Below, piece by piece: positions 32,462 to 64,000 of a DNA stretch of 64,000 nt (the stretch's first letter is position 1; the number at the start of each line of letters is the position of its first letter). Origin of the DNA: Bryobacterales bacterium. Lineage in GTDB: Bacteria; Acidobacteriota; Terriglobia; Bryobacterales; UBA6623. The DNA is taken from the NCBI GenBank assembly GCA_965203925.1, contig OZ241924.1, positions 6,741,206 through 6,805,205 of the forward strand, written 5' to 3'. The position numbers and the translations under genes are program-made. The notes beneath the pieces are model-generated. The model made no database searches, was not told where the DNA came from, and was given only the letters and a program-made list of their open reading frames with translations.

Positions 32462-32471
32462 AGGTGAGCCG

Positions 32472-43212: not shown

Positions 43213-44127
43213 TCAACTCGCCCGGGACACGATCCACCGGGCGAGCCCGCGAAGTGCCCAAGCGCGGTCAGAAAAGACCCCAAGCGCGTCCAGCGATTCC
43301 TCGAGGCAGCGCTGGGCCTTCAGGCGCGATCCCTCAATGCCGTACATCGCCGGATAGGTGGCCTTGGCCTGTCGCGCGTCCTTGCCTGCCGTCTTACCCA
43401 ACTGTTCGGTGGACGACACCACGTCCAGGATGTCGTCGACGATCTGGAACGCAAGCCCTATCCGATCACCGTACAGGCAGAGCGCATTGTGCAGGGCAGG
43501 TTCTTCCTCGACACACTCACCGCACAGGGATCCGACGACCACCGAGGCGCGGATCAGGGCCGCCGTCTTGGATTGGTGGATGTATTGGACGAGGTCTGGC
43601 GTCGGCACGCATCCCTCCGCTTCGAGATCCGCCATCTGGCCGCCAATCATGCCGTCGACAGTGCCAACCGCCCTTGCCACAACGGCCATTGTGTCGGCCC
43701 GGAACTTGGCGTGCAGGTCGCGGCGCCCAGTCTTTTCTCCGTGCGTGGCCAGGGTCAACAGGCCCAACGTCAGTAAGGCATCGCCGGCAAGAATGGCAAC
43801 GGACTCTGAGTACTGCTTGTGACAGGTGGGCTTGCCACGGCGGAAGTCGTCGTCGTCCAGCGCGGGGAGGTCGTCGTGTATCAGCGAGTACGTGTGAATG
43901 CACTCGATAGCTGCGCCGAGTTGGTCACATCCATTCCCCCATTCGCGCGCCTCGGCGGCCGCCAGCATCAGGATCGGCCGGATGCGCTTGCCTCCTGCAA
44001 AGACGCTGTAGCGCATGGCGGAATGCAGAGTCGCCGGGCGGGCGTCGGCCGGCGGGAGGATTTCATCCAGAGCTCTATTGACGCGCGCCCGCCTCTCGAG
44101 GACATACGGCTGGAGCCTGTTAGTCAC
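43213..44127 (-). CDS. ispA: polyprenyl (farnesyl/geranylgeranyl) diphosphate synthase
   Basis: First DDxxD block in LIHDDLPALDDDDFRRG and second in FQIVDDILD. Confidence 0.9.
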   Translation of the reverse strand: MTNRLQPYVLERRARVNRALDEILPPADARPATLHSAMRYSVFAGGKRIRPILMLAAAEAREWGNGCDQLGAAIECIHTYSLIHDDLPALDDDDFRRGKPTCHKQYSESVAILAGDALLTLGLLTLATHGEKTGRRDLHAKFRADTMAVVARAVGTVDGMIGGQMADLEAEGCVPTPDLVQYIHQSKTAALIRASVVVGSLCGECVEEEPALHNALCLYGDRIGLAFQIVDDILDVVSSTEQLGKTAGKDARQAKATYPAMYGIEGSRLKAQRCLEESLDALGVFSDRAWALRGLARWIVSRAS

Positions 44128-44395
44128 CGCGGCTCAAGACCTCACCGGTTCGGCCCAACTCGCCTTCCGCCGGGCGCGCGTGCACCTGCCCGCCGCGCTT
44201 CATCAGGACCTCCACCTTGGTCTCGGCATCCTCCAGCTGTTTGCGGCAGCGCAGACTGAGCTCGACCCCGCTCTCAAATAGGGCCAGAGACTCCTCCAGC
44301 GAAAGCTCACCACCCTCAAGCTTGCGGACGATCTCGTCCAGCTTCTTCAGGCTCTCCTCGAACGATGGCTGGGATTGGGGATCGTCCTTGGCCAT
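44120..44395 (-). CDS. xseB: exodeoxyribonuclease VII small subunit
   Basis: SFEESLKKLDEIVRKLEGGELSLEESLALFESGVEL is the canonical XseB helix. It overlaps the ispA start by 8 nt (the classic xseB-ispA arrangement). Start trimmed to MAKDD. Confidence 0.85.
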   Translation of the reverse strand: MAKDDPQSQPSFEESLKKLDEIVRKLEGGELSLEESLALFESGVELSLRCRKQLEDAETKVEVLMKRGGQVHARPAEGELGRTGEVLSRGD

Positions 44396-45125
44396 GAGGA
44401 CGCCATTGTACTTTGTGTGGCGGCGGCGGGGCTCTCGCTGGCCCGGAGGTAGGCTGCGGGCCGATTGCGGATTGGTTCGCCACGCCGCTGGGGTTACGGA
44501 ACAGACCCTCCCGCAGCACCCGGGCCGGGCATGCGGTTTGGCGACGGCCGCGCGATCCGCGAGTTCATGCGCTGCACCAAGCTCGTGGAAGTGATCCGCA
44601 TTTACGGAGACGGGCGTTCCGGGGCTTTGCAAATGTCTACGTGCCTTGCCTGGGGCCCGATTCCCCTCAAACTCTCCCCAACAAGTCAGCGCCTATAGGA
44701 TGCTGCCGCACGTAACGCTCCCGGAGCGCGGGTCTCGCGGATTTCAAAGGGGCGGAGTCCCTCGACGACCCCTTTTCTCACGGCGGTCTGGCTCTCCAGA
44801 GTCAGCCGGGGCCGACCAGCCCGTCCAATGCAGCCGACGCGCCGACTCGGCGCGCCGCACCGCCCTCTTCGACAGGCTTCGAACACCCGCGCTACGCCGA
44901 GTGGATTGACAACCGCCTCAACCGGTGGGTGCCACGGTTAAACAGCCGTAGCGGCGCGACGCTCAGGAATACCGTATTGTTGTGGGCGGTCGACGTAGGT
45001 TCCCGTGGCCACTTCGTCTATGCGGCCAACCACAAGTGCAACATCTCCGTCTGGCCAACTCCTCATGATCCGTCGCTAGCCCCCCGTCCCTTCGATTCAT
45101 CCCGAGAGCCACAACGAGTACCCCA

Positions 45126-46250
45126 GTGCCATTCGCCCTCAGTTGGGTTGACCACGATCAGGAGGCCCGCGACCGTGCTGAAAAGGTCCTTGCCCTTCTG
45201 GGAGAGCGCGAAGCTCGTGACGAACTCGGGTTGGGACCGATCCGCGACTCCCTGTCGGACCTCCTTTTCCCCGGTACGAGCACTATCCAGACCCGCCTAC
45301 GGTACTTTCTCATCGTGCCGTGGGTCTACCGCACTTTGGAAGACGAGGGGATAGCGGACGACGAAGTACCGAACAAGGGGCGGGATCTTGAGCTGAAGGT
45401 CTCCGCCCATCTCCGCGCGACCTCCGAAGCAGGTGTCTTCGGCAGACGCGCTGGTCGTCGACTCAGGCGCCTCCCGAGTTCCGTCTATTGGCTGGGCCTC
45501 GGTACTTGGGGACTGCGCAACGATTCCGGGGGTCAGAACGGGGAGAGTCGCTGGCACCAGGGCATTCCTGCCGCACCTAGCGGGTTCCCAAAGATCGACA
45601 CACTGAAGCTCACCGCGGCGGAAGCGGAGTATATCCAAGACCGCGTCGCGCAGTCGATTCCAAAGAGCCTGCTTGCCCATCTATTCCTGCTCGCCCGGCC
45701 AGCGAAGTGCGACTTCGCTTGGAAACACCCAGACTACGCCGGATTCTGCAGAATCCACAGGGACGTGCTGGAGCACGCACGCCTGTTCTCCGAGGTCATC
45801 TATGGTGCGCCATTGCTCTACAACCTGCTGCTCGCGAGGCGTGCCCAACGAGAGGACAAGGCCACGGAGTATCGAATGGAACTTGAGACCTGGGCGCTCG
45901 GCCTAGACCGAACCGCCCTCGACAACTGGTCGGTGGAGGACTTCTGGTCGACTGTGCGCCGTCGACGCCGGATCAACCCAAGCGCCTACGGCTTCGTAAA
46001 CCAATGGATCGAGCTTGCAAGGAGTAGCGCTCTGGATGTCGAAAGGCATGGACTCCCTGCAGACGACTCCGCTTCAGCACGGTTGGTGAGGAGGCGGGAG
46101 AAGACGCTGAAACGAGAGCGATCCCGCTTCTTGAATCGGCGTTTGCTCGATCAGTGGGGCGGAGCGGCGGGAGTCTACCGAATGGACTACCGGTGGAACA
46201 ACGTGCGTGACTACCTTCGCGAACTCGCAGCCGGTCTGGGCCAGGGATGA
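45126..46250 (+). CDS. conserved protein of unknown function (component A; possibly a DUF6361-type family, from memory)
   Basis: 374 aa. GTG is the first possible start after an in-frame TGA at 45067. Conserved-looking block ARDELGLGPIRDSLSDLLFPGTSTIQTRLRYFLIVPWVY. No catalytic motif recognised. Confidence 0.7.
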   Translation: MPFALSWVDHDQEARDRAEKVLALLGEREARDELGLGPIRDSLSDLLFPGTSTIQTRLRYFLIVPWVYRTLEDEGIADDEVPNKGRDLELKVSAHLRATSEAGVFGRRAGRRLRRLPSSVYWLGLGTWGLRNDSGGQNGESRWHQGIPAAPSGFPKIDTLKLTAAEAEYIQDRVAQSIPKSLLAHLFLLARPAKCDFAWKHPDYAGFCRIHRDVLEHARLFSEVIYGAPLLYNLLLARRAQREDKATEYRMELETWALGLDRTALDNWSVEDFWSTVRRRRRINPSAYGFVNQWIELARSSALDVERHGLPADDSASARLVRRREKTLKRERSRFLNRRLLDQWGGAAGVYRMDYRWNNVRDYLRELAAGLGQG

Positions 46251-48142
46251 CGTTGCTAGACCCCCAATCCAATCGCACCCTGTACACCGATGCGCTCACG
46301 ACACCGCCAGGTTTCCGGTTTGATTGCGCTGTAGCGCTGACCTATTCCCTTGGGCTGGACACGCTTCTAGCCGTACCGCTCCACCTTCTGCTACACGCGG
46401 GCCGACGAACCCAAACCAGACTTCTCAAGGACCGGCTTGCAGTCCTCGATGGAATCCGACAAACAGCAGGCAACCTCTCGATCTTCCATCAGAACGGTCG
46501 CATCTTGGCGCCTAGGCGGCGACGGATTCTCTACTCCCTGCTCGAGGACTCGGTGTTTCGGGCATCGGCCCCTCGCGACGGTATCTTTCACCCCAAGGTC
46601 TGGCTGCTGCGCTTCTCCGCCGATGCCGACGAATCCACACCGGATCGAAATCGGGACGCGCCCCTCATCCGGCTTGCAGTCCTATCCCGCAACCTAACTG
46701 CGGACCGGTCGTGGGACCTCTCGCTGACGGTGGAGGGACGGCCTGAGGACGAAGAGGTCGATGGGAACGAGGCGCTGGTTCGGTTGCTGCGTGCCCTGCC
46801 CGAATGCGCGCCGGAGCTTCCCGAGGACCGTGCCGACCAGCTCGCTTCCCTAGCGGACGACCTCGCCCGCACCGCCTGGGAGCTTCCAGACGGCATCGAC
46901 GATCTCCGTCTGCACGCCATCGGACTGACCGGGCGTGAATGGTTGCCTCCCCCGTCCGATCAGCTCGTCGTCATGTCACCCTTCTGCACAAGGGGTGCAT
47001 TGAAGCGTCTGGCGCAAACCAGTGATTCGGCCCGGGCGTTGATCTCGCGGCCTGAGGAACTAGTCAGGATGACGCAGAGGTCGCAGTGCACGACCGAACC
47101 GTTCGAACGGCGTCTGGTGTTGCGCGAAACGGCGGAGGCCGATGACGAAGAGGACAGGTCGCTCCGGCGCGGTGCACACACGGGACTTCATGCGAAGCTC
47201 TACCTCTGCGATGAGGCCGGCGGAACACGGCTGTTCGTTGGCTCGGCCAACTCGACCCACCCCGCCTTGATCGGCGCGACCAACGTGGAGCTGATGGTTG
47301 AACTGGCAGGGAGCCCGAAGCTCTTGGGGTCGGTGGAGGGCTTTCTGAGTAACGATGGGTTCGGGGCTCTCTTGGAGGACTTTGATCCCAATGACATTGA
47401 CCCACCCAAACCGGACGAGGTCGACGCCAGGAAGCTTCTGGAACGCGCCTGTGACACGATTGCCGCCTCCAAACTGCGCCTCTCCTGCCAACAGGCGGAC
47501 GACGGTCAGGGGGATGACCGGAGCTGGCAGCTGAATCTGCGCGCCCGGAAGCCGATCAAACTCGCGCCAGGCGTGCGGCTGACAGCATGGCCGATTACCC
47601 TACGCCGTCGTCGAAAGCTCGATTGCCGCCCTCTCCTTAGCGGTCGGGAGATCTCCTTTGGGCCGATGGACCTATCGTCGATCACACGGTTCATCGCATT
47701 CGAGATTGCGTTGCAGGGAGACAGACCCAAGGTGCCGCCTCAGACGTTCGTCCTGCGTGTGTCAACGGGCACGCTGCCCACGCAGGCGCGCGACGATGCT
47801 GTGGTCCGGCAGATTGTACGCAACCGTGAAGGGTTCCTTCGCTATCTCATTTTCCTGCTCGGTGACTTCGACGCCTTTTCGGATGGCGAGGGCGACGAAG
47901 CCGGGTCACCGGGAACTGGTCGCGGGAGCCAGGTCAGGACGCTACCGCTGCTGGAGCAGATGACGCGGGCATTCTGCCGCGATCCGTCGCGACTCGAGGC
48001 GGTGCGCCGCCTCGTCGAGCATCTCCGGCCATCGAGTGCTACCGGCCAGGATGGGACAGTTGTTCCAGACGACTTCCTAGAGCTATGGAAAACCTTTGAG
48101 TCGATACTGCCGGGAGGGGATCGTGACGAATCCGCGCCGTAA
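46247..48142 (+). CDS. phospholipase D-like (HKD) nuclease-family protein (component B)
   Basis: Canonical HKD motif GLHAKLYLCDEAGGTRLFVGSANST (HxKx4Dx(n)GSxN). An N-terminal degenerate copy GIFHPKVWLLRF...LAVLSRNLT has H and K but lacks the Asp. Confidence 0.8.
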   Translation: MTLLDPQSNRTLYTDALTTPPGFRFDCAVALTYSLGLDTLLAVPLHLLLHAGRRTQTRLLKDRLAVLDGIRQTAGNLSIFHQNGRILAPRRRRILYSLLEDSVFRASAPRDGIFHPKVWLLRFSADADESTPDRNRDAPLIRLAVLSRNLTADRSWDLSLTVEGRPEDEEVDGNEALVRLLRALPECAPELPEDRADQLASLADDLARTAWELPDGIDDLRLHAIGLTGREWLPPPSDQLVVMSPFCTRGALKRLAQTSDSARALISRPEELVRMTQRSQCTTEPFERRLVLRETAEADDEEDRSLRRGAHTGLHAKLYLCDEAGGTRLFVGSANSTHPALIGATNVELMVELAGSPKLLGSVEGFLSNDGFGALLEDFDPNDIDPPKPDEVDARKLLERACDTIAASKLRLSCQQADDGQGDDRSWQLNLRARKPIKLAPGVRLTAWPITLRRRRKLDCRPLLSGREISFGPMDLSSITRFIAFEIALQGDRPKVPPQTFVLRVSTGTLPTQARDDAVVRQIVRNREGFLRYLIFLLGDFDAFSDGEGDEAGSPGTGRGSQVRTLPLLEQMTRAFCRDPSRLEAVRRLVEHLRPSSATGQDGTVVPDDFLELWKTFESILPGGDRDESAP

Positions 48143-51100
48143 CGCAGAGAAGGCCCTGAGTGTGCTCAAAGACTTCCAGCTCCGAACGGTGGACTACGTA
48201 TTCAAGCGGATGTGGAAGGATGCTCCGCCCGCACACCGCTTCTTGGTCGCGGACGAAGTCGGACTCGGCAAGACGCTGGTCGCGCGCGGTATCGTCGCCA
48301 AGACGCTGGAGCATCTCTGGGACCGGGTCGCACGGATCGACATTGTCTACATCTGTTCAAATGCGTCCATCGCCCGCCAAAACGTCAGGCGGCTCAATGT
48401 CGGTGGGCTTCCGGATGCAGTGCGGCCAACCCGGCTCACCCTCCTGCCCAAGCATGTCCGCCATCTGGATGGGAACAAGGTTAACTTCATAAGCCTGACA
48501 CCAGGCACGTCCCTCAACACCACCAAGTCGAACCGGGGCGGAATAATCGACGAGCGTCTAGTCCTGTGGCAGATGCTGAAGCAACTGTCCCACCCGCGCG
48601 ATAAGGCTCCACTGACCTTGACGCGGCCCACCCAGGTGGCTCCACCCCCCATGGCGAACGCGCGGCCCGGTCAGCCACTATCGAACGTCGTCCGACTTCT
48701 AGACCGCGATGGCCTCTACAGTCTCCTTCAGTGCAGGGTGTCGGACCGGAATTACCGATGGCACATGCAGTGCAATCTGCCGCCTGTCGACACCGCCCTT
48801 TCCCACGCATTCCTCAAGGCTCTGACTGACGACAGCAAGCTGTACGACGAACTGGTGGACCTCTGCAAACGATTCGCCGACTGGGGCTATGCACACGGCC
48901 AATACTCGATGGTCGGAAAACTCCGTCGTACGCTCGCCAGCGTCTGCATCAAGGCCCTTGAACCGGATCTCGTCATCCTCGACGAGTTTCAGCGATTCCG
49001 CGACCTCCTCGACTCCGACAGCCCAGCGGCCTGCCTCACCCGGCAGATCCTCGACTTTCGGTACAAAAAGGACGCACCTGAAGCGGGACTTAGGGCCCGG
49101 GTCCTTCTGTTGTCTGCCACACCTTACAAGATGCTGACCCTCTATCACGAAGGAGAGGACCACTTCTCGGACTTCCTCCGCACATGCTCCTTCCTCTGCG
49201 ATGACGACGCGGGGGTCAACCTTGGGCTGCGCGCGGCAATTCGACGCTATCGTCTTGGCCTTCTTGAAGGGCGGGGGCGTGTTCAGGATCTGAACAAGGC
49301 TCGACGGGACCTTAAGGCCCGCCTTCTCCAGTTCATGGTACGCACGGAACGTGTGCGCGTATCGGCGGAGCAGGATGCCATGCTTGAGCAACGCGAATCG
49401 AAACCACCCCTCACGACGGAGGACCTCAGGCAGGCCCAAGTCGTCGACCGAGTAGCAGCCACGGTCAAGGCCCGCGATCCAATCGAGTATTGGAAGTCGG
49501 CACCGTACTTACTAAACGTCATGCGGCGGTACCAACTGAAGGATCGCTTCATGGAGTTCTGTGAAGATCCTCCTGTCGACCTTGCCACCGCCGTGCGCGA
49601 CAGTGAACCTTGGCTTCTCAAGCAAGAGGCAGTCGAGCAGTATGAACGGATCGCGCCCGCCAATCCCCGCCTACGTCAACTGCTTGGGGACACGCTGGAA
49701 CAAGACCAGTGGAAGTGGCTCTGGATGCCGCCTTCACTTCCATACCTGGAACCGGGGCCGCCCTACGCGGGAGACGTAGAAGGCTCGACCAAGTCCTTGG
49801 TGTTCTCATCCTGGGTCGTCGTACCCGATGCCATTGCGGCATTCTGCTCCTACGAGGCGGACCGCCGCATGCTAGCTAAGGAACTGAAGTTGCCCAAGTA
49901 CTCGGAGAAGCTACCCAAGTACTCGAATCTGCACCGGTCCCGCGCGCGTCTGCTGGACTTTCGCTTGCAGGACGATCGCCCAAGTGCCATGAACAACATG
50001 CTGCTTCTGTATCCGAGTCCCACGCTCGCAGAGCTCGGTGATCCGCTCCGGCTCGCTCTCGAGCGCGGAGGAAGACCCGTACCCGTTAACGAGGCGCTCG
50101 AGCGCGTGAAGGAGCGGATACGGCAGCGGCTCAGTGAGAGTTCAACGAGATCAGTGTTGAGCATCCCTGAGAGCGATTCGCGCACGACAGATCAGAAATG
50201 GTATTGGGCCAGCACCGCACTGCTTGACGGAGCCCGATATCCGGATGCAATCAGTTGGGTCGAGCACCGGCTCCCTCCTTCGCCCGACGATTCGGACCAC
50301 AGAGGGTTCGCCAAGCACGTTGCCGAATTTCATCGGGCAATGACGAATCGCCCTGATCTTGGAAATCCGCCAGAGGATCTCGTCGAGATTCTGGCCATTG
50401 TGGCGCTTGCAGGGCCTGGCGTGTGCGCGCATCGTGCGCTGCGGCGAATCACGAATCTGAACCCAACCCATCCAAAGCTGCTGTCTGGTGCGGCGCGGGT
50501 GGCCCAAGGCCTGCGCTCGACCTTCAACATGCCGGAGAGTACTAGTCTGATCCGGGCGCTGTCATCGCAACCTCGGACAAGGTACTGGGAGCTCGTCCTC
50601 CGGCATGCTCTTGCCGGAAATCTCCAATCGGTCCTCGACGAGTACGCGCACACATTGGAGGAGTCGCTCGGGTTGACGGGCCATCCGACTGAGGATGTGG
50701 CAGAAGGCATCTCGAGTGAGATGCTGGAAGCACTGTCGATCCGCACATCCCCGGTTCGCATAGACAACATCCACTGCACTGGGCCCGGCGCTCCGATTGA
50801 AGTCGATCCCTTCAACATCCGCACCCGCTTCGCGCTGCGCTTCGGCGACCTTCGAAACGAAAGGAGAGAGAGCATTCAGCGCGCCGACACCGTAAGGAAG
50901 GCATTCAACTCGCCCTTTCGACCGTTCATCCTCGCAACAACCTCGATCGGCCAGGAAGGGTTGGATTTCCACACCTATTGCCATGCCGTGTATCACTGGA
51001 ATCTGCCCCACAATCCCGTCGATCTGGAGCAGAGGGAAGGCCGAGTCCATCGCTATAAGGGTCACGCCGTGCGCAAGAACGTAGCTGAGTGCTACGGTCT

Positions 51101-51458
51101 TGGGCAAATCCAAACTGACTCAGGAGGCGTCCTCGATCCGTGGAAATTTCTATTTCAGAGAGCCAAGGATGATAGGGATACCAAATCGAACGACCTGATC
51201 CCATATTGGATCACTGAAAAGGGGAGCGCTCGCGTTCAGCGCCGTGTGCCGCTGCTACCTTTCAGCCGAGAGGTAGATCAGCTCCGCCGCTTGGTCGGTA
51301 GCCTCGCAGTGTACCGGCTCGCATTCGGCCAGCCGCGCCAGCAGGATCTGGTCGAGTACCTACGAAGGCGGCGTGCCGAGGACACGAACGGACTTGATCT
51401 GGAGCAATTCAGGATTTCGCTGGAGCCGCCCGATATAGTTCACCAAGTAGCCCGCTAG
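48123..51458 (+). CDS. SNF2-like superfamily 2 helicase/translocase, ~1110 aa (component C)
   Basis: Motif I FLVADEVGLGKTLVA, motif II LVILDEFQRF, motif III LLLSATPYKM, motif V-VI ILATTSIGQEGLDFH...DLEQREGRVHRYKGH. GTG at 48123 is preceded by GGGAGGGG; an alternative in-frame start lies at 48096. Confidence 0.85.
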   Translation: MTNPRRNAEKALSVLKDFQLRTVDYVFKRMWKDAPPAHRFLVADEVGLGKTLVARGIVAKTLEHLWDRVARIDIVYICSNASIARQNVRRLNVGGLPDAVRPTRLTLLPKHVRHLDGNKVNFISLTPGTSLNTTKSNRGGIIDERLVLWQMLKQLSHPRDKAPLTLTRPTQVAPPPMANARPGQPLSNVVRLLDRDGLYSLLQCRVSDRNYRWHMQCNLPPVDTALSHAFLKALTDDSKLYDELVDLCKRFADWGYAHGQYSMVGKLRRTLASVCIKALEPDLVILDEFQRFRDLLDSDSPAACLTRQILDFRYKKDAPEAGLRARVLLLSATPYKMLTLYHEGEDHFSDFLRTCSFLCDDDAGVNLGLRAAIRRYRLGLLEGRGRVQDLNKARRDLKARLLQFMVRTERVRVSAEQDAMLEQRESKPPLTTEDLRQAQVVDRVAATVKARDPIEYWKSAPYLLNVMRRYQLKDRFMEFCEDPPVDLATAVRDSEPWLLKQEAVEQYERIAPANPRLRQLLGDTLEQDQWKWLWMPPSLPYLEPGPPYAGDVEGSTKSLVFSSWVVVPDAIAAFCSYEADRRMLAKELKLPKYSEKLPKYSNLHRSRARLLDFRLQDDRPSAMNNMLLLYPSPTLAELGDPLRLALERGGRPVPVNEALERVKERIRQRLSESSTRSVLSIPESDSRTTDQKWYWASTALLDGARYPDAISWVEHRLPPSPDDSDHRGFAKHVAEFHRAMTNRPDLGNPPEDLVEILAIVALAGPGVCAHRALRRITNLNPTHPKLLSGAARVAQGLRSTFNMPESTSLIRALSSQPRTRYWELVLRHALAGNLQSVLDEYAHTLEESLGLTGHPTEDVAEGISSEMLEALSIRTSPVRIDNIHCTGPGAPIEVDPFNIRTRFALRFGDLRNERRESIQRADTVRKAFNSPFRPFILATTSIGQEGLDFHTYCHAVYHWNLPHNPVDLEQREGRVHRYKGHAVRKNVAECYGLGQIQTDSGGVLDPWKFLFQRAKDDRDTKSNDLIPYWITEKGSARVQRRVPLLPFSREVDQLRRLVGSLAVYRLAFGQPRQQDLVEYLRRRRAEDTNGLDLEQFRISLEPPDIVHQVAR

Positions 51459-51537
51459 TAGCAGCGAGGACGGACATCCACATTGGACATGGGCTGTAGT
51501 ACCTAGATGCCGGAACGATGACCGAGAGTGCCGCACG

Positions 51538-52450
51538 TCATCGAATGACTTTCGGCAGCGGGTCCACGAAGTCCATGCAGCTATGCCGTCGGACGACGTC
51601 TAGCCGCCCCCAAGACCGGGTTATTGCCCGGAGTTCTTGCTTCGAGAACTGCGGCAGGCGGGGATACCCGATGAGATACGTGTTCCCGCCCTCTTGAAGC
51701 CAACCCCCCGCTTCTTCAGTACGGCGGGATCATTCGCGAGCTAGGGTCAAGAGACGCAGATCGCGCGGCCTTGGATTACTCCAGAAGACTCCTTGGCGAG
51801 ATTTGTGCATGAGCGGGTCGTGGGTGGCGCCAGAGCCGGTCACAATCCCCAAAACGGTGATCATCGGCTGGTCCGGCTGCGGGTCGTGGCCTAGCTACGA
51901 GCGCACTTCATACTCGGTGAAGTCACCCAACTTAAGCGACTCGGCCTTGATGTTGAAGGCGCTGCCCCCGCTCATGTGTGTCTCTTCCGAGATCGAGACA
52001 ACCGGTAGTCGCGCACGCCGCACAGGAACACGCTCTGCGGGAAGCCGTCCGGCCTCTCGCCGTAGCCAGCCCTAAGCCGCCGCAGCAGAGAGGTCAATGA
52101 GCCACCCTGACTCGTGTCGATCTCGTCAAAGAGCAAGACCAACGGCGGAGCGTCTCATTGAGAGCACCGTCGCCAGGTACTCATGCAGCACGGTCAGCCG
52201 AACATCCCTTACAAGGGTGTGTTGGAGCACTACCGCAGCCCCTCCGGCGATCTGCCTCATTAACGGTAGCAATCGCACCGTTGGATACCCGCACCTAACA
52301 AGGCACTGCCAAATCGAGCAATGTGCCCTTCGGCGAGCGGCCGCAGGCGGGTGCCCCTTCGCTGCTGGGAGCAACGAGCCCAGCAGTGCCACAATGCCGG
52401 AGTGCCACCAACCCAACCCGTGCGGAAGGGAGAGGCTCGGCCCGGTCGTG
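51538..52450 (-). pseudogene. decayed AAA-type ATPase gene (multiple frameshifts and an internal stop)
   Basis: My minus-strand translation gives three fragments in different frames. LVLLFDEIDTSQGGSLTSLLRRLRAGYGERPDGFPQSVFLCGVRDYRL (52142-51972) contains a Walker B-like motif. SGGSAFNIKAESLKLGDFTEYEVRS (51975-51895) ends at a TAG. A possible degraded Walker A, GRSPKGTLLDLA, lies near 52330. A further fragment, ...GRLDVVRRHSCMDFVDPLPKVIR, ends at 51538. Confidence 0.5.
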
Positions 52451-56663: not shown

Positions 56664-56677
56664 CCATATCCGTGCTA

Positions 56678-57637
56678 TCATGATGGGGTCCGGTTGGCCT
56701 GGTGCCGGTTACCAAGCTTTCCGTCGAGGGGGGTGCGGGCAACACTCCCCTCGGTTTTTTCCTGCGCCAGTTCGCGAAGGAGGGAATCCTTGCGGTGGGC
56801 GCCCCTGACAATTCGCGCGAGGCGGTTGCGCCTGGCGGTGTTCCAAGCGGTGTAGTACCGCTCGGTGGTTTGCACGCTGCTGTGGCCCAGCAGGGTACTG
56901 ACGTCGTGCATGGCCACCCCCGAGAGGAGCAGCTCGACGGCAAAAGTGTCCCGCAGGCGGTGTGGGTGAAAGCCCTCGACACCCGCCGCGGTGGCGACCC
57001 CCCGGAGTCGCCGCCGCCAGTACTTCGTGCAGGTCTCACGGAGTGACCTGCCCGTCCAGAAGTAGTGCGGCCCGTACCGCTCGGGCAGACCCTCGAGCGC
57101 CGCTATCACAGGCGCCGGCAGCAGTACAGTCACGAGCTCGCCGCTCTTGGCGCGGCGCAGGACGAGCTCGCCACACTCCCTCAAATCGCTCCTCGGGAGG
57201 GTGACGGCGTCGCCGATCGCCAGCCCGGACCAGCGCATCAGCAGCATCAGCGCTCGCTCCGGGGAGCCCCCCGGCGCGGCCGCCAGAAGGCGCCGCATCT
57301 CGTCCCGCTCCAAGGGCAGTGTCTGCTTCTGTCGCGCCTTCGGGGGCCGTATGCGGGCCGCCGGGGACTGGTCGACCCAGCCTTCTTGCACGGCGTGGCG
57401 GTAGAACGCCTTGATCCGCCCCAGCTCTGTCCGCCGCGTGCTGGCGGCCAGGCCCCTCTCCTCGAGCCAATTCCGCAGCGCGTCGGCGTCGATCTGGTCG
57501 AGGTCGACCAGGTCGCGACGGTCGGCGTACGCCTCCAGCGACCGGAACGTGCACGCGTGTCCGGCACGGGTCGAGCGCCTCAGGTCTCGAGCCTTGAGGT
57601 CGCGCAGCCAGGCTTTCACCGCCGCGCCGAGCGTCAC
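56678..57637 (-). CDS. tyrosine recombinase / phage-type integrase
   Basis: RWSGLAIGD (Arg I), HPHRLRDTFA (H-x-x-R) and LLGHSSVQTTERYY (His/Tyr nucleophile). GTG at 57637 overlaps the resolvase stop (GTGA). The 840-aa ORF in the track is an artefactual fusion. Confidence 0.85.
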   Translation of the reverse strand: MTLGAAVKAWLRDLKARDLRRSTRAGHACTFRSLEAYADRRDLVDLDQIDADALRNWLEERGLAASTRRTELGRIKAFYRHAVQEGWVDQSPAARIRPPKARQKQTLPLERDEMRRLLAAAPGGSPERALMLLMRWSGLAIGDAVTLPRSDLRECGELVLRRAKSGELVTVLLPAPVIAALEGLPERYGPHYFWTGRSLRETCTKYWRRRLRGVATAAGVEGFHPHRLRDTFAVELLLSGVAMHDVSTLLGHSSVQTTERYYTAWNTARRNRLARIVRGAHRKDSLLRELAQEKTEGSVARTPLDGKLGNRHQANRTPS

Positions 57638-58230
57638 ACCGGGACTCCCTTGTGGATGCCCGGATAGGCGTCGGGGTCCCCGCCCGGGAACCACTTGTAG
57701 AGCGTCGAGACGTCGATGCCGAGGCTCTTGGCGATCTCGGTCCTGAGCAGGCGCTTGTCGCGCAGCAAGGCCTGCACCCTGCGGACGTGCTCGGGGTCGT
57801 GGAACGGCGACCGGCGCCCCCACAGCTCCCCCCGCTCGCGGGCGAGCCGGGCGGCGAGCCTGGTGCGCTCCCGCGCCAGGTCCGCCTCCATCTCGGCCAG
57901 CGCGGCGAACAGGACGAAGACCAGCCGCCCGCCGGGGGTGCCGGTGTCGATCGCCTCGGTCAGGGACACCAGCTGGCAGCCGCGCCGCTGCAGGCGCGCC
58001 GCCAGGTCGAGCATGTGGCGCACGGAGCGGGCCAGGCGGTCGAAGCGCCAAACGACCAGGCTGTCCCCGGGCCGCAGGAACTCCAGGCACTCGTCGAGCT
58101 GCTCGCGCGCCTCCAGGCGTCCGGAGGCCTTGTCCCGGAACACCCTCTCGCAGCCCTGCCCCTGCAGGGCGCGGAGCTGCGCCTCCGGGTCCTGGTCCAA
58201 CGTGCTCACGCGCGCGTATCCGACTCGCAT
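57634..58230 (-). CDS. serine recombinase (resolvase/invertase family)
   Basis: MRVGYARVSTLDQDPEAQ (catalytic Ser), VVWRFDRLARS, and a C-terminal HTH (RTEIAKSLGIDVSTLYKW). Confidence 0.9.
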   Translation of the reverse strand: MRVGYARVSTLDQDPEAQLRALQGQGCERVFRDKASGRLEAREQLDECLEFLRPGDSLVVWRFDRLARSVRHMLDLAARLQRRGCQLVSLTEAIDTGTPGGRLVFVLFAALAEMEADLARERTRLAARLARERGELWGRRSPFHDPEHVRRVQALLRDKRLLRTEIAKSLGIDVSTLYKWFPGGDPDAYPGIHKGVPV

Positions 58231-58270
58231 TGCCGATATCGCTCCTTCCCCGAAGTATAGGCGCAGGCCA

Positions 58271-58370
58271 TCGGCAAGCCCATCGGCAATGCCTCCGGGG
58301 CCTGTTCCGGGCCGTTCGGGGCCGCTCCCGGGACCGTTGCCGAAAGGACCCTTTCGGCAACGGTCGGCAA
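58271..58370. promoter_or_regulatory. res-like recombinase binding-site cluster
   Basis: TCGGCAA occurs at 58271, 58283, 58354 and 58364, and inverted (TTGCCGA) at 58337. The segment 58335-58362 is a 28-bp palindrome: CGTTGCCGAAAGG-AC-CCTTTCGGCAACG. The cluster starts 41 bp upstream of the resolvase start codon. Confidence 0.45.
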
Positions 58371-58439
58371 TGGCGCCGTATTAGAATCCGGCCAGTGCCG
58401 CGCATTCCAGGTGACGAGGCAGGGGAGCTCCGGGAGGCC

Positions 58440-58877
58440 ATGCGCGCGGCGCGCGCCAGATCGCTGCGCTTCGGCGAGATGCTGGCCCGCCATCTCCAGC
58501 GCAGGCAGTGGGTCCAGGGACTGTCCTTCGGGCTGTCGTCCGCAGCGGCGCTCGCGGTCCTCGCGGGGCCCTGGCCGCGGGTCGCGGCCGTGCTGGCGGG
58601 GGCCGTGGCGGTCGCGAACGCCTGGGGGGCTGCCGCCTGCCCGCACCAGGAGCTCGTCAGGCTCGCGGCGCTGAGGAGCGGCTGGGAGTCCCTGCGAATC
58701 GACTGCGGCAGCCTCTTGTCCAGCCGGCGCGGGGGCGGGGCGCGGGGGCGGTTCGACGCGCTGCAGCAGCGTGCCGACCGCCTCGGGTCACTGGCGAGTT
58801 CCGGAAGTCCCCGGAAACCGGGCGCGGCAGGGCGCTGGGAGCGCTTCGCGGGTTGCGGGACCGATCGGGAGGCCTGA
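58440..58877 (+). CDS. small 2-TM membrane protein
   Basis: MRAARARSLRFGEMLARHLQRRQW, then two hydrophobic helices (LSFGLSSAAALAVLAG and VAAVLAGAVAVANAWGAA), then a helical tail. An alternative in-frame GTG lies at 58395. The topology is reminiscent of SLATT-type domains, but this is speculative. Confidence 0.45.
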   Translation: MRAARARSLRFGEMLARHLQRRQWVQGLSFGLSSAAALAVLAGPWPRVAAVLAGAVAVANAWGAAACPHQELVRLAALRSGWESLRIDCGSLLSSRRGGGARGRFDALQQRADRLGSLASSGSPRKPGAAGRWERFAGCGTDREA

Positions 58878-58886
58878 GGCGCATCG

Positions 58887-59243
58887 ATGGCTGACGGCTC
58901 GATCGACGGCCGCCGGCCGGCCTGGGGCGGGCCGGGGCGGTTCGCTGCGGAGAAGGGGAGGATCGAGCGGCACCGGCGCGAGATGCAGCGCAGGCAGGCG
59001 GAGCATCTCGCCAGGCTGAAGCGCCGCGGCCGGCTGTTCGGTTTCTGGTTCGCCGCCCTGTCGGCCCTCGCAGCCCTGTCGGCGGCCGCAAGCGGCAGGC
59101 CGCTGCATGCTGCCGTCGTGGCGGCGGCCGCCGCCGCCATGTTCGCCCTCCTGCGCGGCGCGTGGAGCAGCGCACCACCCCTGCCTGAGGCCAGGCCCAT
59201 CGGCCCGCCGCCTGCGCCGCGGAAGCCTACAATGGGCTCCTGA
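58887..59243 (+). CDS. small 2-TM membrane protein
   Basis: Basic coiled segment RIERHRREMQRRQAEHLARLKRRGR, then LFGFWFAALSALAALSAAA and LHAAVVAAAAAAMFALL. It starts 9 nt after the upstream gene and overlaps the next gene with TGATG. Confidence 0.45.
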   Translation: MADGSIDGRRPAWGGPGRFAAEKGRIERHRREMQRRQAEHLARLKRRGRLFGFWFAALSALAALSAAASGRPLHAAVVAAAAAAMFALLRGAWSSAPPLPEARPIGPPPAPRKPTMGS

Positions 59244-59548
59244 TGCCCGATTCCCCGACGCCGCAGCCGGACTCCAAGCTCCTGTTCGACCTGCTCTTGG
59301 ACTTGAAGATGGAGCCGGGGGGCGCCTATACTTTCACTCAGGAGGTCGGGAACATGGCCGCCGCCAATCTCATCGCCCGCTTCGAGTCCAAGCTCGATGC
59401 GCAGGGCTCTCGCTTCGACTCCAGGCTCGAGGCCCAGAACACGCAGACGGCCTCGCTGAAGTCCGAGATTGCCTCGCTCCGCTGGATGATCGGCCTCGGG
59501 TTCACCCTGCTGGCCCTGCTCATCACCCTGCTTCGCTTCCTAGGCTGA
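59243..59548 (+). CDS. DUF1640-like coiled-coil protein with C-terminal TM anchor
   Basis: LLFDLLLDLKMEPGGAYTFTQEV... coiled coil ...WMIGLGFTLLALLITLLRF. It is a paralogue of the gene at 62937-63203. Confidence 0.55.
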   Translation: MPDSPTPQPDSKLLFDLLLDLKMEPGGAYTFTQEVGNMAAANLIARFESKLDAQGSRFDSRLEAQNTQTASLKSEIASLRWMIGLGFTLLALLITLLRFLG

Positions 59549-59562
59549 GCCCGGCCCGGTTC

Positions 59563-59958
59563 TTAGCCGGCCTCGCCGGGCTTGCGAAAGGCCCATACGA
59601 CGGCCAGCGCCGCGCCGGCGATCAGCGCGAACAGCCCAGTCCGGATCCAGCCGACCCCCGCGAGGATGAGGCCGGCCAGGGTCAGCAGCGTGCCGGGGAC
59701 GACCATGCGGAGGGTGTTGCCGTGAGGCATCAGCCGGATGGCGTCGTCGCGGCCGCGAAACCCCGACGCGGCGATCAGCGCCGCGGCGACGCCCCATGCG
59801 CACCAACCCGTCCGGATCCAGCCGACTTCCATAAGGATCGGGACGGCAAACATCAGCAACAGGCCGGGGACGAGCATTCTGATGTCGCACCTGCGCCGGG
59901 CCGCCACCGGCGCTGGCAGTCCGGCCTCGTCACGTGTCTCTCCCGGCGAGCGCGTCAT
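59563..59958 (-). CDS. 4-TM membrane protein with internal duplication
   Basis: IRMLVPGLLLMFAVPILMEVGWIRTGWCAWGVAAALIAASGFR is repeated as LRMVVPGTLLTLAGLILAGVGWIRTGLFALIAGAALAVVWAFR. Confidence 0.55.
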   Translation of the reverse strand: MTRSPGETRDEAGLPAPVAARRRCDIRMLVPGLLLMFAVPILMEVGWIRTGWCAWGVAAALIAASGFRGRDDAIRLMPHGNTLRMVVPGTLLTLAGLILAGVGWIRTGLFALIAGAALAVVWAFRKPGEAG

Positions 59959-60105
59959 GGCTCAAGCCTAATCGGCGGGAGCTTCCCCACCGGAGGCTCT
60001 CCGCTCAGGCCACGGCCGCAATGGCCCGCAAGGTCGCGACGGGCATCGACCCTCCGGTCCGCCCGGCCCGCCCTGTCGCGGCCGCTGAGCCCGTATCTGT
60101 AACAG

Positions 60106-60162
60106 ATAGCATGTTACGATACAGGGAGTGATTGGGCCGGAATGTGTAACGTAACATGCTAT
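60106..60162. promoter_or_regulatory. 13-bp perfect inverted repeat in an AT-rich divergent promoter region
   Basis: ATAGCATGTTACG (60106-60118) and CGTAACATGCTAT (60150-60162), with a 31-bp spacer. Extra GTAAC copies lie at 60099, 60146 and 60163. Confidence 0.4.
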
Positions 60163-60212
60163 GTAACTACTCTGACTCGACATCCGTCTCATGTTGCAGG
60201 AGGTGGCTCACG

Positions 60213-60452
60213 ATGGCAGGAAGGGATTGGCGTGACCCGGACGGGACGCTCCGCACCTGGAGCATCCAGAGGCGCGATCCGGTCTCGTGGCTGTGGGGGA
60301 CCGTGCGCAGGTCGCGCGGCTCCTACCGGCAGGCCTGCCTGCTGGCTGATGAGCTGGAGCACCGGGAGGAGTGCCTGGCCTACCCGCGCCGCTGGCCCGA
60401 GCCCGAACCCGCCGCCTGGCGCGTGGTCAGCGACGAGCACGAGACGGCATGA
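60213..60452 (+). CDS. small hypothetical protein (79 aa), paralogue of 60496-60783
   Basis: AGGAGG lies 9 nt upstream. MAGRDWRDPDGTLRTWSIQRRDPVSWLWGTVRR...ACLLADEL...AAWRVVSDEHE. Confidence 0.5.
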   Translation: MAGRDWRDPDGTLRTWSIQRRDPVSWLWGTVRRSRGSYRQACLLADELEHREECLAYPRRWPEPEPAAWRVVSDEHETA

Positions 60453-60467
60453 TAAGCGCGGGGCACG

Positions 60468-60500
60468 CCCGGGCGGGACTGGCAGGAGGACGACCATGGA
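60468..60500. repeat. 33-bp duplicated leader, copy 1 (CCCGGGCGGGACTGGCAGGAGGACGACCATGGA)
   Basis: Identical to 60769-60801 except for one base (G/A). It contains the SD and ATG of the downstream gene. Confidence 0.8.
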
Positions 60501-60783
60501 GAAACGGGACAGACCCGAGCGGGTGCACAAGATGACCTGGGCAATCCAGTCGCGCGATCGGCTCACGGGCCGAAGGTGGCGGACAGTGCGGGAGGGGATC
60601 GCGACCGCCGAGGAGGCCTGCGAATTGGCCCTGGACTACCCCGGGAACTGGGGCTGGACGTCGTGGCGCGTGGTCAGCGAGGAGCGCGAGGGTCTCGCGG
60701 CTGGCGGCGTCGTTGAGCCCCCTGGCGGGTGGCGAGCGTGGAGGAGACGGCTGACGCGCCCGGGCCGGCCCGGGCGGGACTGA
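60496..60783 (+). CDS. small hypothetical protein (95 aa), paralogue of 60213-60452
   Basis: MEKRDRPERVHKMTWAIQSRDRLTGRRWRTVREG...ACELALDY...TSWRVVSEEREG shares the W-x-IQ-x-RD...W-x-TVR...AC-x-LA...WRVVS-[DE]-E pattern. Confidence 0.5.
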   Translation: MEKRDRPERVHKMTWAIQSRDRLTGRRWRTVREGIATAEEACELALDYPGNWGWTSWRVVSEEREGLAAGGVVEPPGGWRAWRRRLTRPGRPGRD

Positions 60784-60801
60784 CAGGAGGACGACCATGG
60801 A
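60769..60801. repeat. 33-bp duplicated leader, copy 2
   Basis: CCCGGGCGGGACTGACAGGAGGACGACCATGGA. The TGA inside it is the stop of the upstream gene, and the ATG is the start of the KfrA-like gene. Confidence 0.8.
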
Positions 60802-61384
60802 CAAGCCGGAGATCTTCGAGGCCTGCGAGCGGATCGCGGAGGGGGGCGGCAAGCTCACCGTGCGGTCGCTGCGCGACGAGCTGGGGCGGGGCAGCTTCAG
60901 CGAGCTGGGGCCCGCCCTGCGGGAGTGGAAGCGGGAGCGCGCCAGGCAGCCCCCCGCGGGCGCGCCCGTTCCGGACGACGTCGCCGAACTGGGGGGCGGC
61001 CTGGCCCTGCAGCTGTGGAAGCTGGCCCTCGCCCAGTCCGAGGAGCGGCTGGCGGCCGAGCGGGGGGCGCTGCAGGAGGCGCGCGAAGAGCTGGAGGCCG
61101 AGCGCTCCGAGGCGGAGCGCTTCGCCGACGAGATGGAGGCCCAGATGCGCGAGCACGCGGCCCGGGCGGAGGCGGCCGGGCGCAAGGCCGAGGAGACTGC
61201 CAAGGAGGCCGCGGCCCGGGAGGCGTGGCTCAAGGAGCGCCTCGACAAGGCCCAGGCGGAGGCCCGGGAGGCCCGGGCCCGCGAGGCGGAGATCCGCGCG
61301 GCCGCCGCGCGTTCGGAGGGGCAGGCCGAGGCCCTGAAGGCGCAGGTCGCGGCGCTGACGGAGCGGTTGGGGGAGCGCTCGTGA
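60797..61384 (+). CDS. KfrA-like DNA-binding protein (N-terminal HTH-like domain + long E/A/R coiled coil)
   Basis: IFEACERIAEGGGKLTVRSLRDELGRGSFSELGPALREWK resembles the KfrA_N plasmid DNA-binding domain. The rest is an alanine/glutamate/arginine coiled coil. Confidence 0.65.
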   Translation: MDKPEIFEACERIAEGGGKLTVRSLRDELGRGSFSELGPALREWKRERARQPPAGAPVPDDVAELGGGLALQLWKLALAQSEERLAAERGALQEAREELEAERSEAERFADEMEAQMREHAARAEAAGRKAEETAKEAAAREAWLKERLDKAQAEAREARAREAEIRAAAARSEGQAEALKAQVAALTERLGERS

Positions 61385-61480
61385 AGGCCGCCGGCGGCAA
61401 TCTGCGCCGCGCCCCCCCGCAGCCCCAAGAATGCGCAGTTGCGATCCTCAGCACGCGCGGGCGCCGCTATTCAGTGCGGA

Positions 61481-61753
61481 ATGTGCCATTCTGGGTGCAT
61501 GGCCGTCCTGACCGTCCATGCGGACCGGACCTACGACTGGCGCTGCGACGGCTGCCGGGGGGTCTGGCGGCGCTACGGTCCGCACAGGGGTCCGCGCAGG
61601 CGGTTCTGCAAAGCATGCCAGAACCTGCGGGCCTACGCCCGGAAGGTGCCGCTGGACCGGCGCAGGCGGTTCACGCACGGGTCGGCGCGGTATGCCCGGG
61701 CGACCGGGCAGGAGTTCGGAATCCGCACTGAACAGCGCTCGGCCGACCCTTGA
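61481..61753 (+). CDS. small Cys-rich (zinc-ribbon-like) basic protein
   Basis: MCHSGC...WRCDGCRGVW...FCKACQ gives CxxxC/CxxC/CxxC spacing. The start and the reality of the gene are both uncertain. Confidence 0.3.
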   Translation: MCHSGCMAVLTVHADRTYDWRCDGCRGVWRRYGPHRGPRRRFCKACQNLRAYARKVPLDRRRRFTHGSARYARATGQEFGIRTEQRSADP

Positions 61754-62199
61754 TCAGTGCGGTATCCCCGGTTGGCGTGGCGATCGCCGCGGCCGGCAGG
61801 AGCGAGGCAGCGCGGAGCGAGCGGGCGGCGGCTGGCGGTTCCTACGGGTAGATGGCCGCGGAGGCCCCGATCGGGCGTCACCCATAGCTCAGGCCCGCCC
61901 GAAACAGTAACTGCCCGGGCAGGCCTCGGCGCGATCGCGCGCTCCGCGGAGGACCTCCGGCCGCTGCAGCGAACCCGGCCTTGCGCTACGCATAGCGACA
62001 GTAAGGCCTCACGCGCGCGGTGTCCGCGAAACCTGCCCCAAGCCGGGAAAAGGGCGCAAATCCGGAGAATCGGCATCGTCAGGACCGCCCAGGATCGACG
62101 ATCTCCGGCGGGGCTGCACTTGGCCGCACGGCAGGTCAATCTGGGGGACGGCGCCAGCCCGCTGCTGGTAGGATGGCGGTCGTGCGGCGCGGGCGGGGC

Positions 62200-62924: not shown

Positions 62925-62936
62925 CTTCTGCCGCGC

Positions 62937-63574: not shown

Positions 63575-63630
63575 GGCCCGATAGTCCCACGGCCGGGCCG
63601 CGCTGGCCAGCGATGAGTCCGGCCCGCGCC

Positions 63631-63951: not shown

Positions 63952-64000
63952 GCGGCACCCGCGGTCGTCGGGGCCCAGCCGCCAGCCCAGGTTCTCGCAG

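What the first reader, a model, noticed from the sequence alone, without database searches (positions are those of the whole stretch)
45126..51458. Coupled three-gene operon (unknown protein + PLD/HKD nuclease-like + ~1110-aa SNF2-like helicase): candidate novel or poorly characterised defence system
Seen in sequence: three co-directional ORFs with overlapping junctions. The A stop and B start share ATGA at 46247-46250. The C start (GTG 48123) lies 20 nt inside B and is preceded by GGGAGGGG. B carries a canonical HKD motif (LHAKLYLCD...GSANST). C carries SF2/SNF2 motifs (DEVGLGKT, DEFQ, SAT, QREGRVHR). A has no recognisable catalytic motif but has a strongly conserved-looking block (LFPGTSTIQTRLRYFLIVPWVY).

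Established knowledge: PLD-family nucleases paired with helicases recur in anti-phage systems, for example DISARM DrmC with DrmA/DrmD, and Mokosh (SF1 helicase + PLD).

Inference: this triad has no methyltransferase, no DUF1998 partner and no SF1 helicase, so it fits neither DISARM nor Mokosh. It may be a distinct methylase-independent nucleic-acid-sensing/degrading module. I have a vague, unverifiable recollection that a DUF + PLD + helicase triad was named Azaca (ZacABC), so this could be that system or a distant relative rather than something wholly new.
Basis: partly seen in the sequence, partly recalled or inferred. Interest (0 to 1): 0.85.

Follow-up and report, generated by a model that had tools for sequence, protein, structure and literature searches.

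The report
Azaca (ZacABC) anti-phage defence operon
The three overlapping genes are an intact copy of Azaca (ZacA-ZacB-ZacC), a named and experimentally tested bacterial anti-phage system, inserted at a variable spot in an acidobacterial chromosome, so the finding is real but not new.

Summary
Three co-directional, overlapping ORFs lie at 45126-51458, with the stated junctions and motifs. The "candidate novel system" reading does not hold. All three proteins match the PADLOC models for Azaca end to end: ZacA 1.3e-116, ZacB 2.3e-164, ZacC E=0. ZacA is Pfam DUF6361.

Azaca is attributed to Millman et al. 2022. A 2025 preprint shows that Bacillus ZacABC blocks T4 more than 10^6-fold. It cleaves T4 dsDNA only as a three-protein set, and cleavage needs the nuclease (HKD) site and the ZacC Walker A motif.

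This copy looks functional:
- Both HxK motifs of ZacB and all ZacC helicase motifs are conserved.
- dN/dS is about 0.25 against a sister genome.
- In 66 of 66 informative genomes, zacA is followed by zacB and zacC.

The operon is accessory here. Its GC3 is 0.70 against a host value of about 0.82. In relatives, the same xseB-amidase interval is empty or holds Uma2 or a transposase.

Two points remain open: the role of ZacA (a confident all-helical model with no PDB fold match) and the trigger for this ortholog. Interest is low.

The parts
45126..46250 (+). zacA: DUF6361 protein, 374 aa, GTG start. All-alpha, with residues 1-30 predicted disordered.
   Evidence: PADLOC ZacA 1.3e-116, profile positions 2-394 of 396. 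Pfam PF19888 1.4e-68. AF2 model pLDDT 87.4, pTM 0.86. No PDB or BFVD fold match; best E-values 0.7 and 0.4.
45264..45329 (+). Most conserved ZacA block, LFPGTSTIQTRLRYFLIVPWVY (residues 47-68).
   Evidence: F48, P49, G50, T51, S52, T53, I54, Q55, T56, R57, R59 and Y60 are at least 97% conserved in 81 sequences. Translation confirmed.
46247..48142 (+). zacB: two-lobed PLD-superfamily nuclease (about residues 1-360) plus a beta-rich domain and a helical tail (about 390-620). 631 aa.
   Evidence: PADLOC ZacB 2.3e-164, profile positions 2-581 of 586. AF2 pLDDT 81.7, pTM 0.82. Best PDB fold matches are Tdp1, PPK1, NgoAVII R-protein, PLD2, BfiI and SauUSI. The profile hits the SauUSI (7CLG) HKD region at 2e-5.
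46586..46603 (+). ZacB first HKD-type motif, FHPKVW (H115, K117).
   Evidence: Invariant in 26-, 68- and 75-sequence alignments. Translation confirmed.
47183..47257 (+). ZacB second HKD motif, GLHAKLYLCD...GSANST (H315, K317, S333, N335).
   Evidence: Invariant. Weak Pfam PLDc_2 hit at residues 312-355. Translation confirmed.
48123..51458 (+). zacC: SF2 (SNF2/RapA-like) helicase-type ATPase, 1111 aa from GTG 48123. An alternative TTG start lies at 48096.
   Evidence: PADLOC ZacC E=0, 1085 bits, profile positions 5-1016 of 1019. Pfam Helicase_C. The profile hits the RapA C-lobe at 3e-6.
48252..48275 (+). ZacC motif I / Walker A, DEVGLGKT.
   Evidence: D44-T51 invariant. Translation confirmed. 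A Walker A mutation abolishes cleavage in Bacillus ZacC.
48981..48992 (+). ZacC motif II, DEFQ.
   Evidence: D287-Q290 invariant.
50940..51053 (+). ZacC motifs V (TSIGQEGLD) and VI (QREGRVHR).
   Evidence: Invariant.
44396..45125 (.). Non-coding spacer of about 730 bp between xseB and zacA. The promoter is presumed to lie here but was not located.
   Evidence: 75.9% identical, with indels, to the sister locus L001, against 88-92% without gaps in the neighbouring genes. No sigma-70-like site on the + strand was found here.
51459..52449 (.). Spacer between zacC and the amidase gene. It holds a frameshifted AAA-ATPase-like gene remnant on the - strand at about 51850-52150.
   Evidence: Six-frame translation shows the LLFDEID and FNIKAESLKLGDFTEYEV strings interrupted by stops. 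No Pfam hit.

Best explanation
This is an intact Azaca (ZacA-ZacB-ZacC) anti-phage defence operon. It was acquired horizontally at the xseB-amidase hotspot of a Bryobacterales-like (Acidobacteriota) chromosome.

Most likely mechanism: the three proteins form one complex. ZacC, an SNF2/RapA-like SF2 ATPase, uses ATP to engage or translocate on invading double-stranded DNA. This licenses ZacB, a single-chain two-lobed PLD nuclease whose two HxK motifs form one active site, to cut that DNA through a phosphohistidine intermediate. ZacA (DUF6361) is an obligatory non-catalytic subunit, probably structural or involved in target selection.

Self and non-self are probably told apart by a feature of phage DNA such as base hypermodification. 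In effect this would be a split, ATP-dependent type IV-like restriction complex.

Shown here: family membership, conserved catalytic residues, purifying selection and accessory status.

Shown by others for the Bacillus ortholog only: protection against T4, preferential cleavage of T4 dsDNA, and the requirement for all three proteins, the nuclease (HKD) site and the ZacC Walker A motif.

Inferred: complex architecture, translocation, the role of ZacA, and the cue recognised by this ortholog.

My sub-probabilities: identity as Azaca 0.97; ATP-dependent nuclease-helicase degradation of invader DNA 0.8; modification-dependent trigger in this ortholog 0.4.
For: - Full-length PADLOC matches to ZacA, ZacB and ZacC, and DUF6361.
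- 66 of 66 loci keep the zacA-zacB-zacC order.
- Both HxK motifs of ZacB and motifs Q, I, II, III, V and VI of ZacC are invariant.
- The ZacB model has a PLD-superfamily two-lobed fold resembling Tdp1, NgoAVII, BfiI and SauUSI, and its profile hits the SauUSI HKD region.
- The ZacC C-lobe is RapA/SNF2-like.
- Against the sister locus L001, zacA and zacB have dN/dS 0.23-0.26 with no gaps.
- GC3 is 0.69-0.71 against about 0.82 for host genes.
- In relatives the same site is empty or occupied differently.
- Defence genes flank Azaca in other genomes.
- Literature: bioRxiv 10.1101/2025.07.10.664194 gives the T4 protection, T4 DNA cleavage and mutant requirements. PMC10952713 attributes Azaca to Millman et al. 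2022.
Against: - Nothing was tested on this ortholog.
- It shares only 36-53% ZacA identity with the 80 best genome loci recovered, and its identity to the tested Bacillus proteins was not measured.
- Its natural phages are unknown, so the T4 (glucosyl-hmC) cue may not apply.
- Mutating conserved ZacA residues did not affect complex formation or cleavage in vitro, so ZacA's role is unclear.
- No recognisable modification-reader domain (SRA, PUA, EVE) was detected by Pfam or fold search in ZacA or ZacB.
- No other defence gene lies in this 64-kb window.
- No promoter was found.
Confidence: 0.85

Rival explanations
1. The locus is Azaca, but the trigger is not base modification. ZacC senses an infection-associated DNA state, such as free ends, damage or replication intermediates, as Hachiman HamAB does. 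It then unleashes ZacB on any DNA, giving abortive infection rather than selective restriction.
For: No modification-reader domain was found in any subunit. Nuclease-helicase systems such as Hachiman work this way (abstracts listed). ZacB most resembles Tdp1, an enzyme that acts on DNA ends.
Against: [quoted passage not shown]
Confidence: 0.2
2. The triad is a housekeeping DNA-repair or remodelling module (an SNF2-like translocase plus a Tdp1-like phosphodiesterase), not an immune system.
For: It sits among housekeeping genes (xseB, ispA, truA, amidase, trkAH) with no defence neighbour in the window. The ZacB fold resembles Tdp1. It is under purifying selection.
Against: Close relatives lack it at this site. 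Its codon composition is atypical. Distribution across phyla is patchy, and other copies have defence-island neighbours. Anti-phage activity has been shown directly for an ortholog.
Confidence: 0.03
3. The operon is an inactive relic that is decaying after horizontal transfer.
For: Decayed copies exist elsewhere: L073 has an internal zacB-zacC deletion and L027 a frameshifted zacC. A pseudogene remnant lies next to zacC in the window. No promoter was detected.
Against: All three ORFs are full length with every catalytic motif intact. dN/dS is about 0.25 with no indels over 2.4 kb against L001.
Confidence: 0.03

Closest known systems
Azaca (ZacABC; Millman et al. 2022; Bacillus ortholog BmAzaca characterised in bioRxiv 10.1101/2025.07.10.664194)
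   Same: Same three families in the same order: a DUF6361 protein, a PLD nuclease and an SF2 helicase. All three give full-length HMM matches, and the HKD and Walker A/B residues needed for activity in BmAzaca are conserved.
   Different: The host is a high-GC acidobacterium. ZacB and ZacC are about 45 and 90 residues longer than the PADLOC profiles. This copy is solitary rather than in a defence island. Its phage range and cue are untested.
SauUSI (PDB 7CLG), an ATP-dependent type IV modification-dependent restriction enzyme (PMC7913695)
   Same: A PLD nuclease working with an SF2 helicase-like ATPase that powers translocation and cleavage of modified foreign DNA. The ZacB profile aligns to the SauUSI HKD region at E=2e-5, and the fold search also recovers it.
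   Different: SauUSI is a single polypeptide with one HKD per chain; it dimerises through its nuclease domains and carries its own target-recognition domain (TRD). Azaca is split into three proteins, ZacB has two HxK motifs in one chain, and no recognisable modification-reader or TRD-like domain was found.
DISARM (DrmA/DrmB/DrmC with DrmD/DrmE and a methyltransferase)
   Same: Combines a PLD protein (DrmC) with SF2/SNF2-like helicases. The ZacC C-lobe matches DrmD and DrmA models locally.
   Different: There is no methyltransferase and no DUF1998 partner. The DrmD match covers about 75 residues at 61 bits against a cutoff of 610.
Mokosh (MkoA/MkoB or MkoC)
   Same: A PLD nuclease plus a helicase, found in the same discovery study.
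   Different: The Mokosh helicase is an SF1 Upf1-like RNA helicase (COG1112), whereas ZacC is SF2. There are no Mokosh PADLOC hits. Mokosh type II cut only ssDNA in vitro.
Hachiman (HamAB)
   Same: An SF2 helicase partnered with a nuclease in an obligate complex.
   Different: The nuclease family differs (DUF1837, not PLD). Hachiman has two components, and its helicase ATPase motifs are dispensable for in vitro cleavage, unlike ZacC.

Membership tests
Azaca (ZacABC) | ZacA: a stand-alone DUF6361 protein of about 400 aa | tested here: met
   PADLOC ZacA 1.3e-116 over profile positions 2-394 of 396. Pfam PF19888 232 bits against a cutoff of 25.
Azaca (ZacABC) | ZacB: a PLD-family nuclease with catalytic HKD residues | tested here: met
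   PADLOC ZacB 2.3e-164 over profile positions 2-581 of 586. H115/K117 and H315/K317 are invariant. The model has a PLD-superfamily fold.
Azaca (ZacABC) | ZacC: an SF2 helicase with intact Walker A and B motifs | tested here: met
   PADLOC ZacC E=0, 1085 bits, profile positions 5-1016 of 1019. GLGKT, DEFQ, SAT and QREGR are conserved.
Azaca (ZacABC) | The three genes are adjacent and co-directional in the order A-B-C | tested here: met
   The window has 4-nt and 20-nt overlaps. The same order holds in 66 of 66 informative loci.
Azaca (ZacABC) | Confers protection against phage when expressed | not testable with these tools
   Shown only for other orthologs, for example more than 10^6-fold protection against T4.
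Azaca (ZacABC) | A ternary complex cleaves phage dsDNA in an HKD- and Walker A-dependent way | not testable with these tools
   Shown for BmAzaca. Here only the catalytic residues could be checked.
DISARM | DrmA helicase with a DUF1998 partner (DrmB) and a DrmMI or DrmMII methyltransferase | tested here: not met
   A PADLOC scan of 57 further window ORFs found only FtsK-derived partial hits. DrmD and DrmA models match only ZacC residues 902-982.
Mokosh | SF1 Upf1-like (COG1112) helicase paired or fused with a PLD nuclease | tested here: not met
   There are no Mko model hits. ZacC carries SF2/SNF2-type motifs and matches RapA.
SauUSI-like type IV restriction enzyme | A single polypeptide with a PLD nuclease, an SF2 ATPase and a target-recognition domain (TRD) for modified cytosine | tested here: not met
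   The functions are split over three genes. Similarity is limited to about 45 residues around the HKD motif. No recognisable modification-reader or TRD-like domain was detected.
SauUSI-like type IV restriction enzyme | Cleavage depends on DNA base modification | not testable with these tools
   The only evidence is the T4-DNA preference of BmAzaca reported.

The most novel reading that the evidence does not exclude
ZacA, a confident all-helical model with no fold match in the PDB or BFVD, is the target-selection subunit. On this reading, the divergent acidobacterial clade recognises a cue other than T4-type glucosyl-hmC DNA. Azaca would then be a modular, retargetable ATP-dependent restriction platform with a new kind of DNA-feature reader.
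Probability: 0.2. Interest if true: 0.45.

Novelty: already known. Interest (0 to 1): 0.12.

Why it matters
It matters little as a discovery, because standard defence-system annotation (PADLOC or DefenseFinder) would label this locus Azaca. It still has three modest uses:
- It documents an intact, selected Azaca copy in a poorly studied soil phylum.
- It identifies the xseB-amidase interval as a cargo-swapping hotspot in these genomes.
- It supplies confident ZacA and ZacB models: a single-chain, double-HxK PLD with a Tdp1-like two-lobed fold, and an orphan all-alpha ZacA fold. These narrow the two questions still open for Azaca, namely what ZacA does and how targets are chosen.

Tried and rejected
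- Sequence and profile searches of the PDB found nothing significant for ZacA. The only hit below E=0.01, a 53-residue match to cytochrome P450 2E1 at E=8e-4, was judged spurious. For ZacB and ZacC they found only short motif-level matches to SauUSI and RapA.
- An apparent second defence system (SspH 2.6e-56, mad8, HerA) turned out to be partial matches to the ATPase domain of housekeeping FtsK at 32394-34775.
- An exact look-up of the window's own ZacA gave no contig record or name. The taxon is therefore inferred from L001 and from TrkA relatives labelled Bryobacterales.
- Insertion boundaries and target-site repeats could not be defined, because the empty-site relatives are only 65-70% identical and their intergenic DNA does not align.
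- No tRNA or Rfam family occurs anywhere in the window.
- Promoter and terminator scans gave no more sites than shuffled sequence.
- The gene remnant downstream of zacC has no Pfam match.
- DISARM and Mokosh were considered and rejected (see the membership table).


Full report
**Observation**

The window contains three co-directional ORFs on the + strand:
- A: 45126-46250 (GTG start, 374 aa).
- B: 46247-48142 (ATG start, 631 aa).
- C: 48096 or 48123 to 51458 (1120 or 1111 aa).

ATGA at 46247-46250 joins the A stop to the B start. GTG at 48123 lies 20 nt inside B and is preceded by GGGAGGGG. All quoted peptide motifs translate at the expected coordinates.

One correction is needed. B carries two HKD-type motifs, FHPKVW (H115/K117) and GLHAK...GSANST (H315/K317), and both are invariant in homologues.

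**Identity**

Against PADLOC-DB the three proteins match ZacA (1.3e-116, profile positions 2-394 of 396), ZacB (2.3e-164, 2-581 of 586) and ZacC (E=0, 1085 bits, 5-1016 of 1019).

Pfam calls A as DUF6361 (232 bits). It gives only sub-threshold PLDc_2 for B, and Helicase_C plus a weak DEAD match for C.

NCBIfam has no model for A or B. It matches C only locally, to DrmD, DpdE and RapA in the helicase C-lobe and far below their cutoffs.

So this is Azaca (ZacABC). The literature held here attributes Azaca to Millman et al. 2022 (PMC10952713).

**What is published on Azaca**

A 2025 preprint (10.1101/2025.07.10.664194) reports the following:
- Azaca gives more than 10^6-fold protection against T4.
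- Purified Bacillus ZacABC preferentially degrades T4 dsDNA. The authors suggest glucosyl-hmC as a possible cue.
- All three proteins are required for cleavage.
- Nuclease-site and ZacC Walker A mutants are dead.
- Mutating conserved ZacA residues had no effect in vitro.

A full-text search found no dedicated mechanistic or structural paper beyond this preprint. The sequence and profile searches found no PDB entry for any Azaca protein: only short motif-level matches for ZacB and ZacC, and only one isolated, presumably spurious hit for ZacA.

**Conservation as a unit**

A pattern scan of one genome per GTDB species found at least 567 ZacA-encoding stretches. They span many phyla, including Pseudomonadota, Thermodesulfobacteriota, Planctomycetota, Acidobacteriota, Myxococcota, Chloroflexota, Actinomycetota, Bacillota and Spirochaetota.

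Of the 80 loci fetched, 66 have at least 5.1 kb downstream of zacA. All 66 carry near-full-length zacB and zacC in the same order.

Decayed copies also exist. L073 has an internal zacB-zacC deletion and L027 has a frameshifted zacC.

An exhaustive profile search counts 3,918 ZacA clusters at 50% identity with E of 1e-3 or better. The 150 best are all stand-alone proteins of 339-458 aa, most about 400 aa.

**Anatomy**

ZacB:
- The AF2 model has pLDDT 81.7 and pTM 0.82.
- It is a two-lobed PLD-superfamily fold over about residues 1-360, followed by a beta-rich domain and a helical tail.
- The best PDB matches are Tdp1, the PLD-like domains of PPK1, the PLD restriction enzymes NgoAVII and BfiI, SauUSI and PLD2.
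- A ZacB profile also aligns to the HKD region of SauUSI (7CLG, 2e-5).

ZacC:
- It keeps motifs Q, I (GLGKT), II (DEFQ), III (SAT), V and VI (QREGR).
- Its C-lobe is RapA/SNF2-like.
- Large insertions separate the motifs.

ZacA:
- It gives a confident all-helical model (pLDDT 87.4, pTM 0.86, first 30 residues disordered).
- It has no significant fold match in the PDB or in viral predicted structures.

**Genomic context**

Upstream of the operon lie genes for a TolC-like outer-membrane protein, truA, ispA and xseB. Downstream lie an amidase gene, trkA and trkH. The window has no tRNA or Rfam element.

A PADLOC scan of 57 other window ORFs found only partial SspH, mad8 and HerA matches. All of these belong to FtsK. 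The Azaca copy is therefore solitary here.

The Azaca genes are compositionally atypical. Their GC3 is 0.69-0.71 against about 0.82 for host genes, and local GC dips to 0.60.

A Bryobacterales MAG (GCA_028819235.1, locus L001) is collinear with the window at 87.7% nucleotide identity and has Azaca at the same site. In that comparison:
- zacA and zacB align without gaps.
- dN/dS is 0.23-0.26 and dS is 0.23-0.30, like the flanking genes.
- This indicates purifying selection and inheritance from a common ancestor.

More distant relatives (TrkA 80-82% identical) keep the flanking genes but differ in what lies between xseB and the amidase gene:
- L084 and L085 have nothing there.
- L083 has a Uma2 gene.
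- L086 has a Tn5-like transposase.

Azaca is therefore accessory cargo at a variable hotspot, not a fixed core feature.

In 14 Azaca loci from other genomes, flanking ORFs hit 264 PADLOC families at E of 1e-10 or better. These include type I R-M, TRIP13/CapP, AriA, LeoA/LeoBC, PbeA and MADS models. This association is qualitative; I ran no control.

**Mechanism (committed view)**

I propose an obligate ZacABC complex that works as follows:
1. ZacC ATP hydrolysis drives engagement or translocation on invader dsDNA.
2. This licenses the single-chain double-HxK PLD site of ZacB to cut.
3. ZacA acts as a required non-catalytic or target-selection subunit.
4. Discrimination is probably by phage DNA hypermodification, making Azaca functionally a split analogue of ATP-dependent type IV enzymes such as SauUSI (PMC7913695).

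The evidence divides as follows:
- Shown here: membership, conserved catalytic residues, selection and mobility.
- Shown elsewhere, for the Bacillus ortholog only: protection, T4-DNA preference and the subunit and motif requirements.
- Inferred: translocation, complex architecture, ZacA's role and the cue for this ortholog.

The main rival keeps the identity but proposes a Hachiman-like DNA-state sensor (probability about 0.2). A housekeeping repair role and an inactive relic are both unlikely (about 0.03 each).

**Verdict**

Novelty: already known. Interest: 0.12.

Noticed in passing
window 56664-64000: A segment with 72-76% GC (host about 65%) begins right after trkH. It carries a tyrosine-integrase domain (about 56845-57619, - strand, inside an over-long 840-aa ORF), a serine resolvase (57634-58230, - strand) and a KfrA_N plasmid-type DNA-binding protein (60797-61384, + strand). 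In four relatives trkH is followed directly by hisI, hisD and hisC, so this looks like an integrated mobile element.
   Followed up: partly
window 51850-52150 (- strand): A frameshifted remnant of an AAA-ATPase-like gene (LLFDEID... and FNIKAESLKLGDFTEYEV strings) lies in the roughly 990-bp spacer between zacC and the amidase gene. It may be left over from earlier cargo at this hotspot. It has no Pfam hit.
   Followed up: partly
window 44396-52449; loci L083-L086 between xseB and the amidase gene: The xseB-amidase interval is a cargo-swapping hotspot in related genomes. It is empty in L084 and L085, holds a Uma2 gene in L083 and a Tn5-like DDE transposase in L086, and holds Azaca in the window and in L001.
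   Followed up: yes
window 32394-34775 (+ strand): Housekeeping FtsK gives strong but partial PADLOC hits to SspH (2.6e-56, only the last 360 or so of 1766 profile positions), mad8 and HerA. This would be a false positive if hits were read without checking coverage.
   Followed up: yes
L073:11185-12098; L027:13022-16188: Degraded Azaca copies exist in other genomes. In L073 (a Bryobacteraceae MAG), zacB residues 1-103 are followed directly by zacC residues 890-1109. In L027, zacC is frameshifted, which could be real decay or a long-read assembly error.
   Followed up: no
window 44120-44632 (- strand): The 170-aa ORF containing xseB is over-extended. Relatives annotate XseB at 82-90 aa, so the real start is probably the ATG giving MAKDDPQ... 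(gene about 44120-44395). That leaves a spacer of about 730 bp before zacA.
   Followed up: partly
L086:6134-8476: The transposase occupying the hotspot in one relative carries an N-terminal Pfam DruA (Druantia-associated) hit fused to Tn5-type DDE transposase domains.
   Followed up: no
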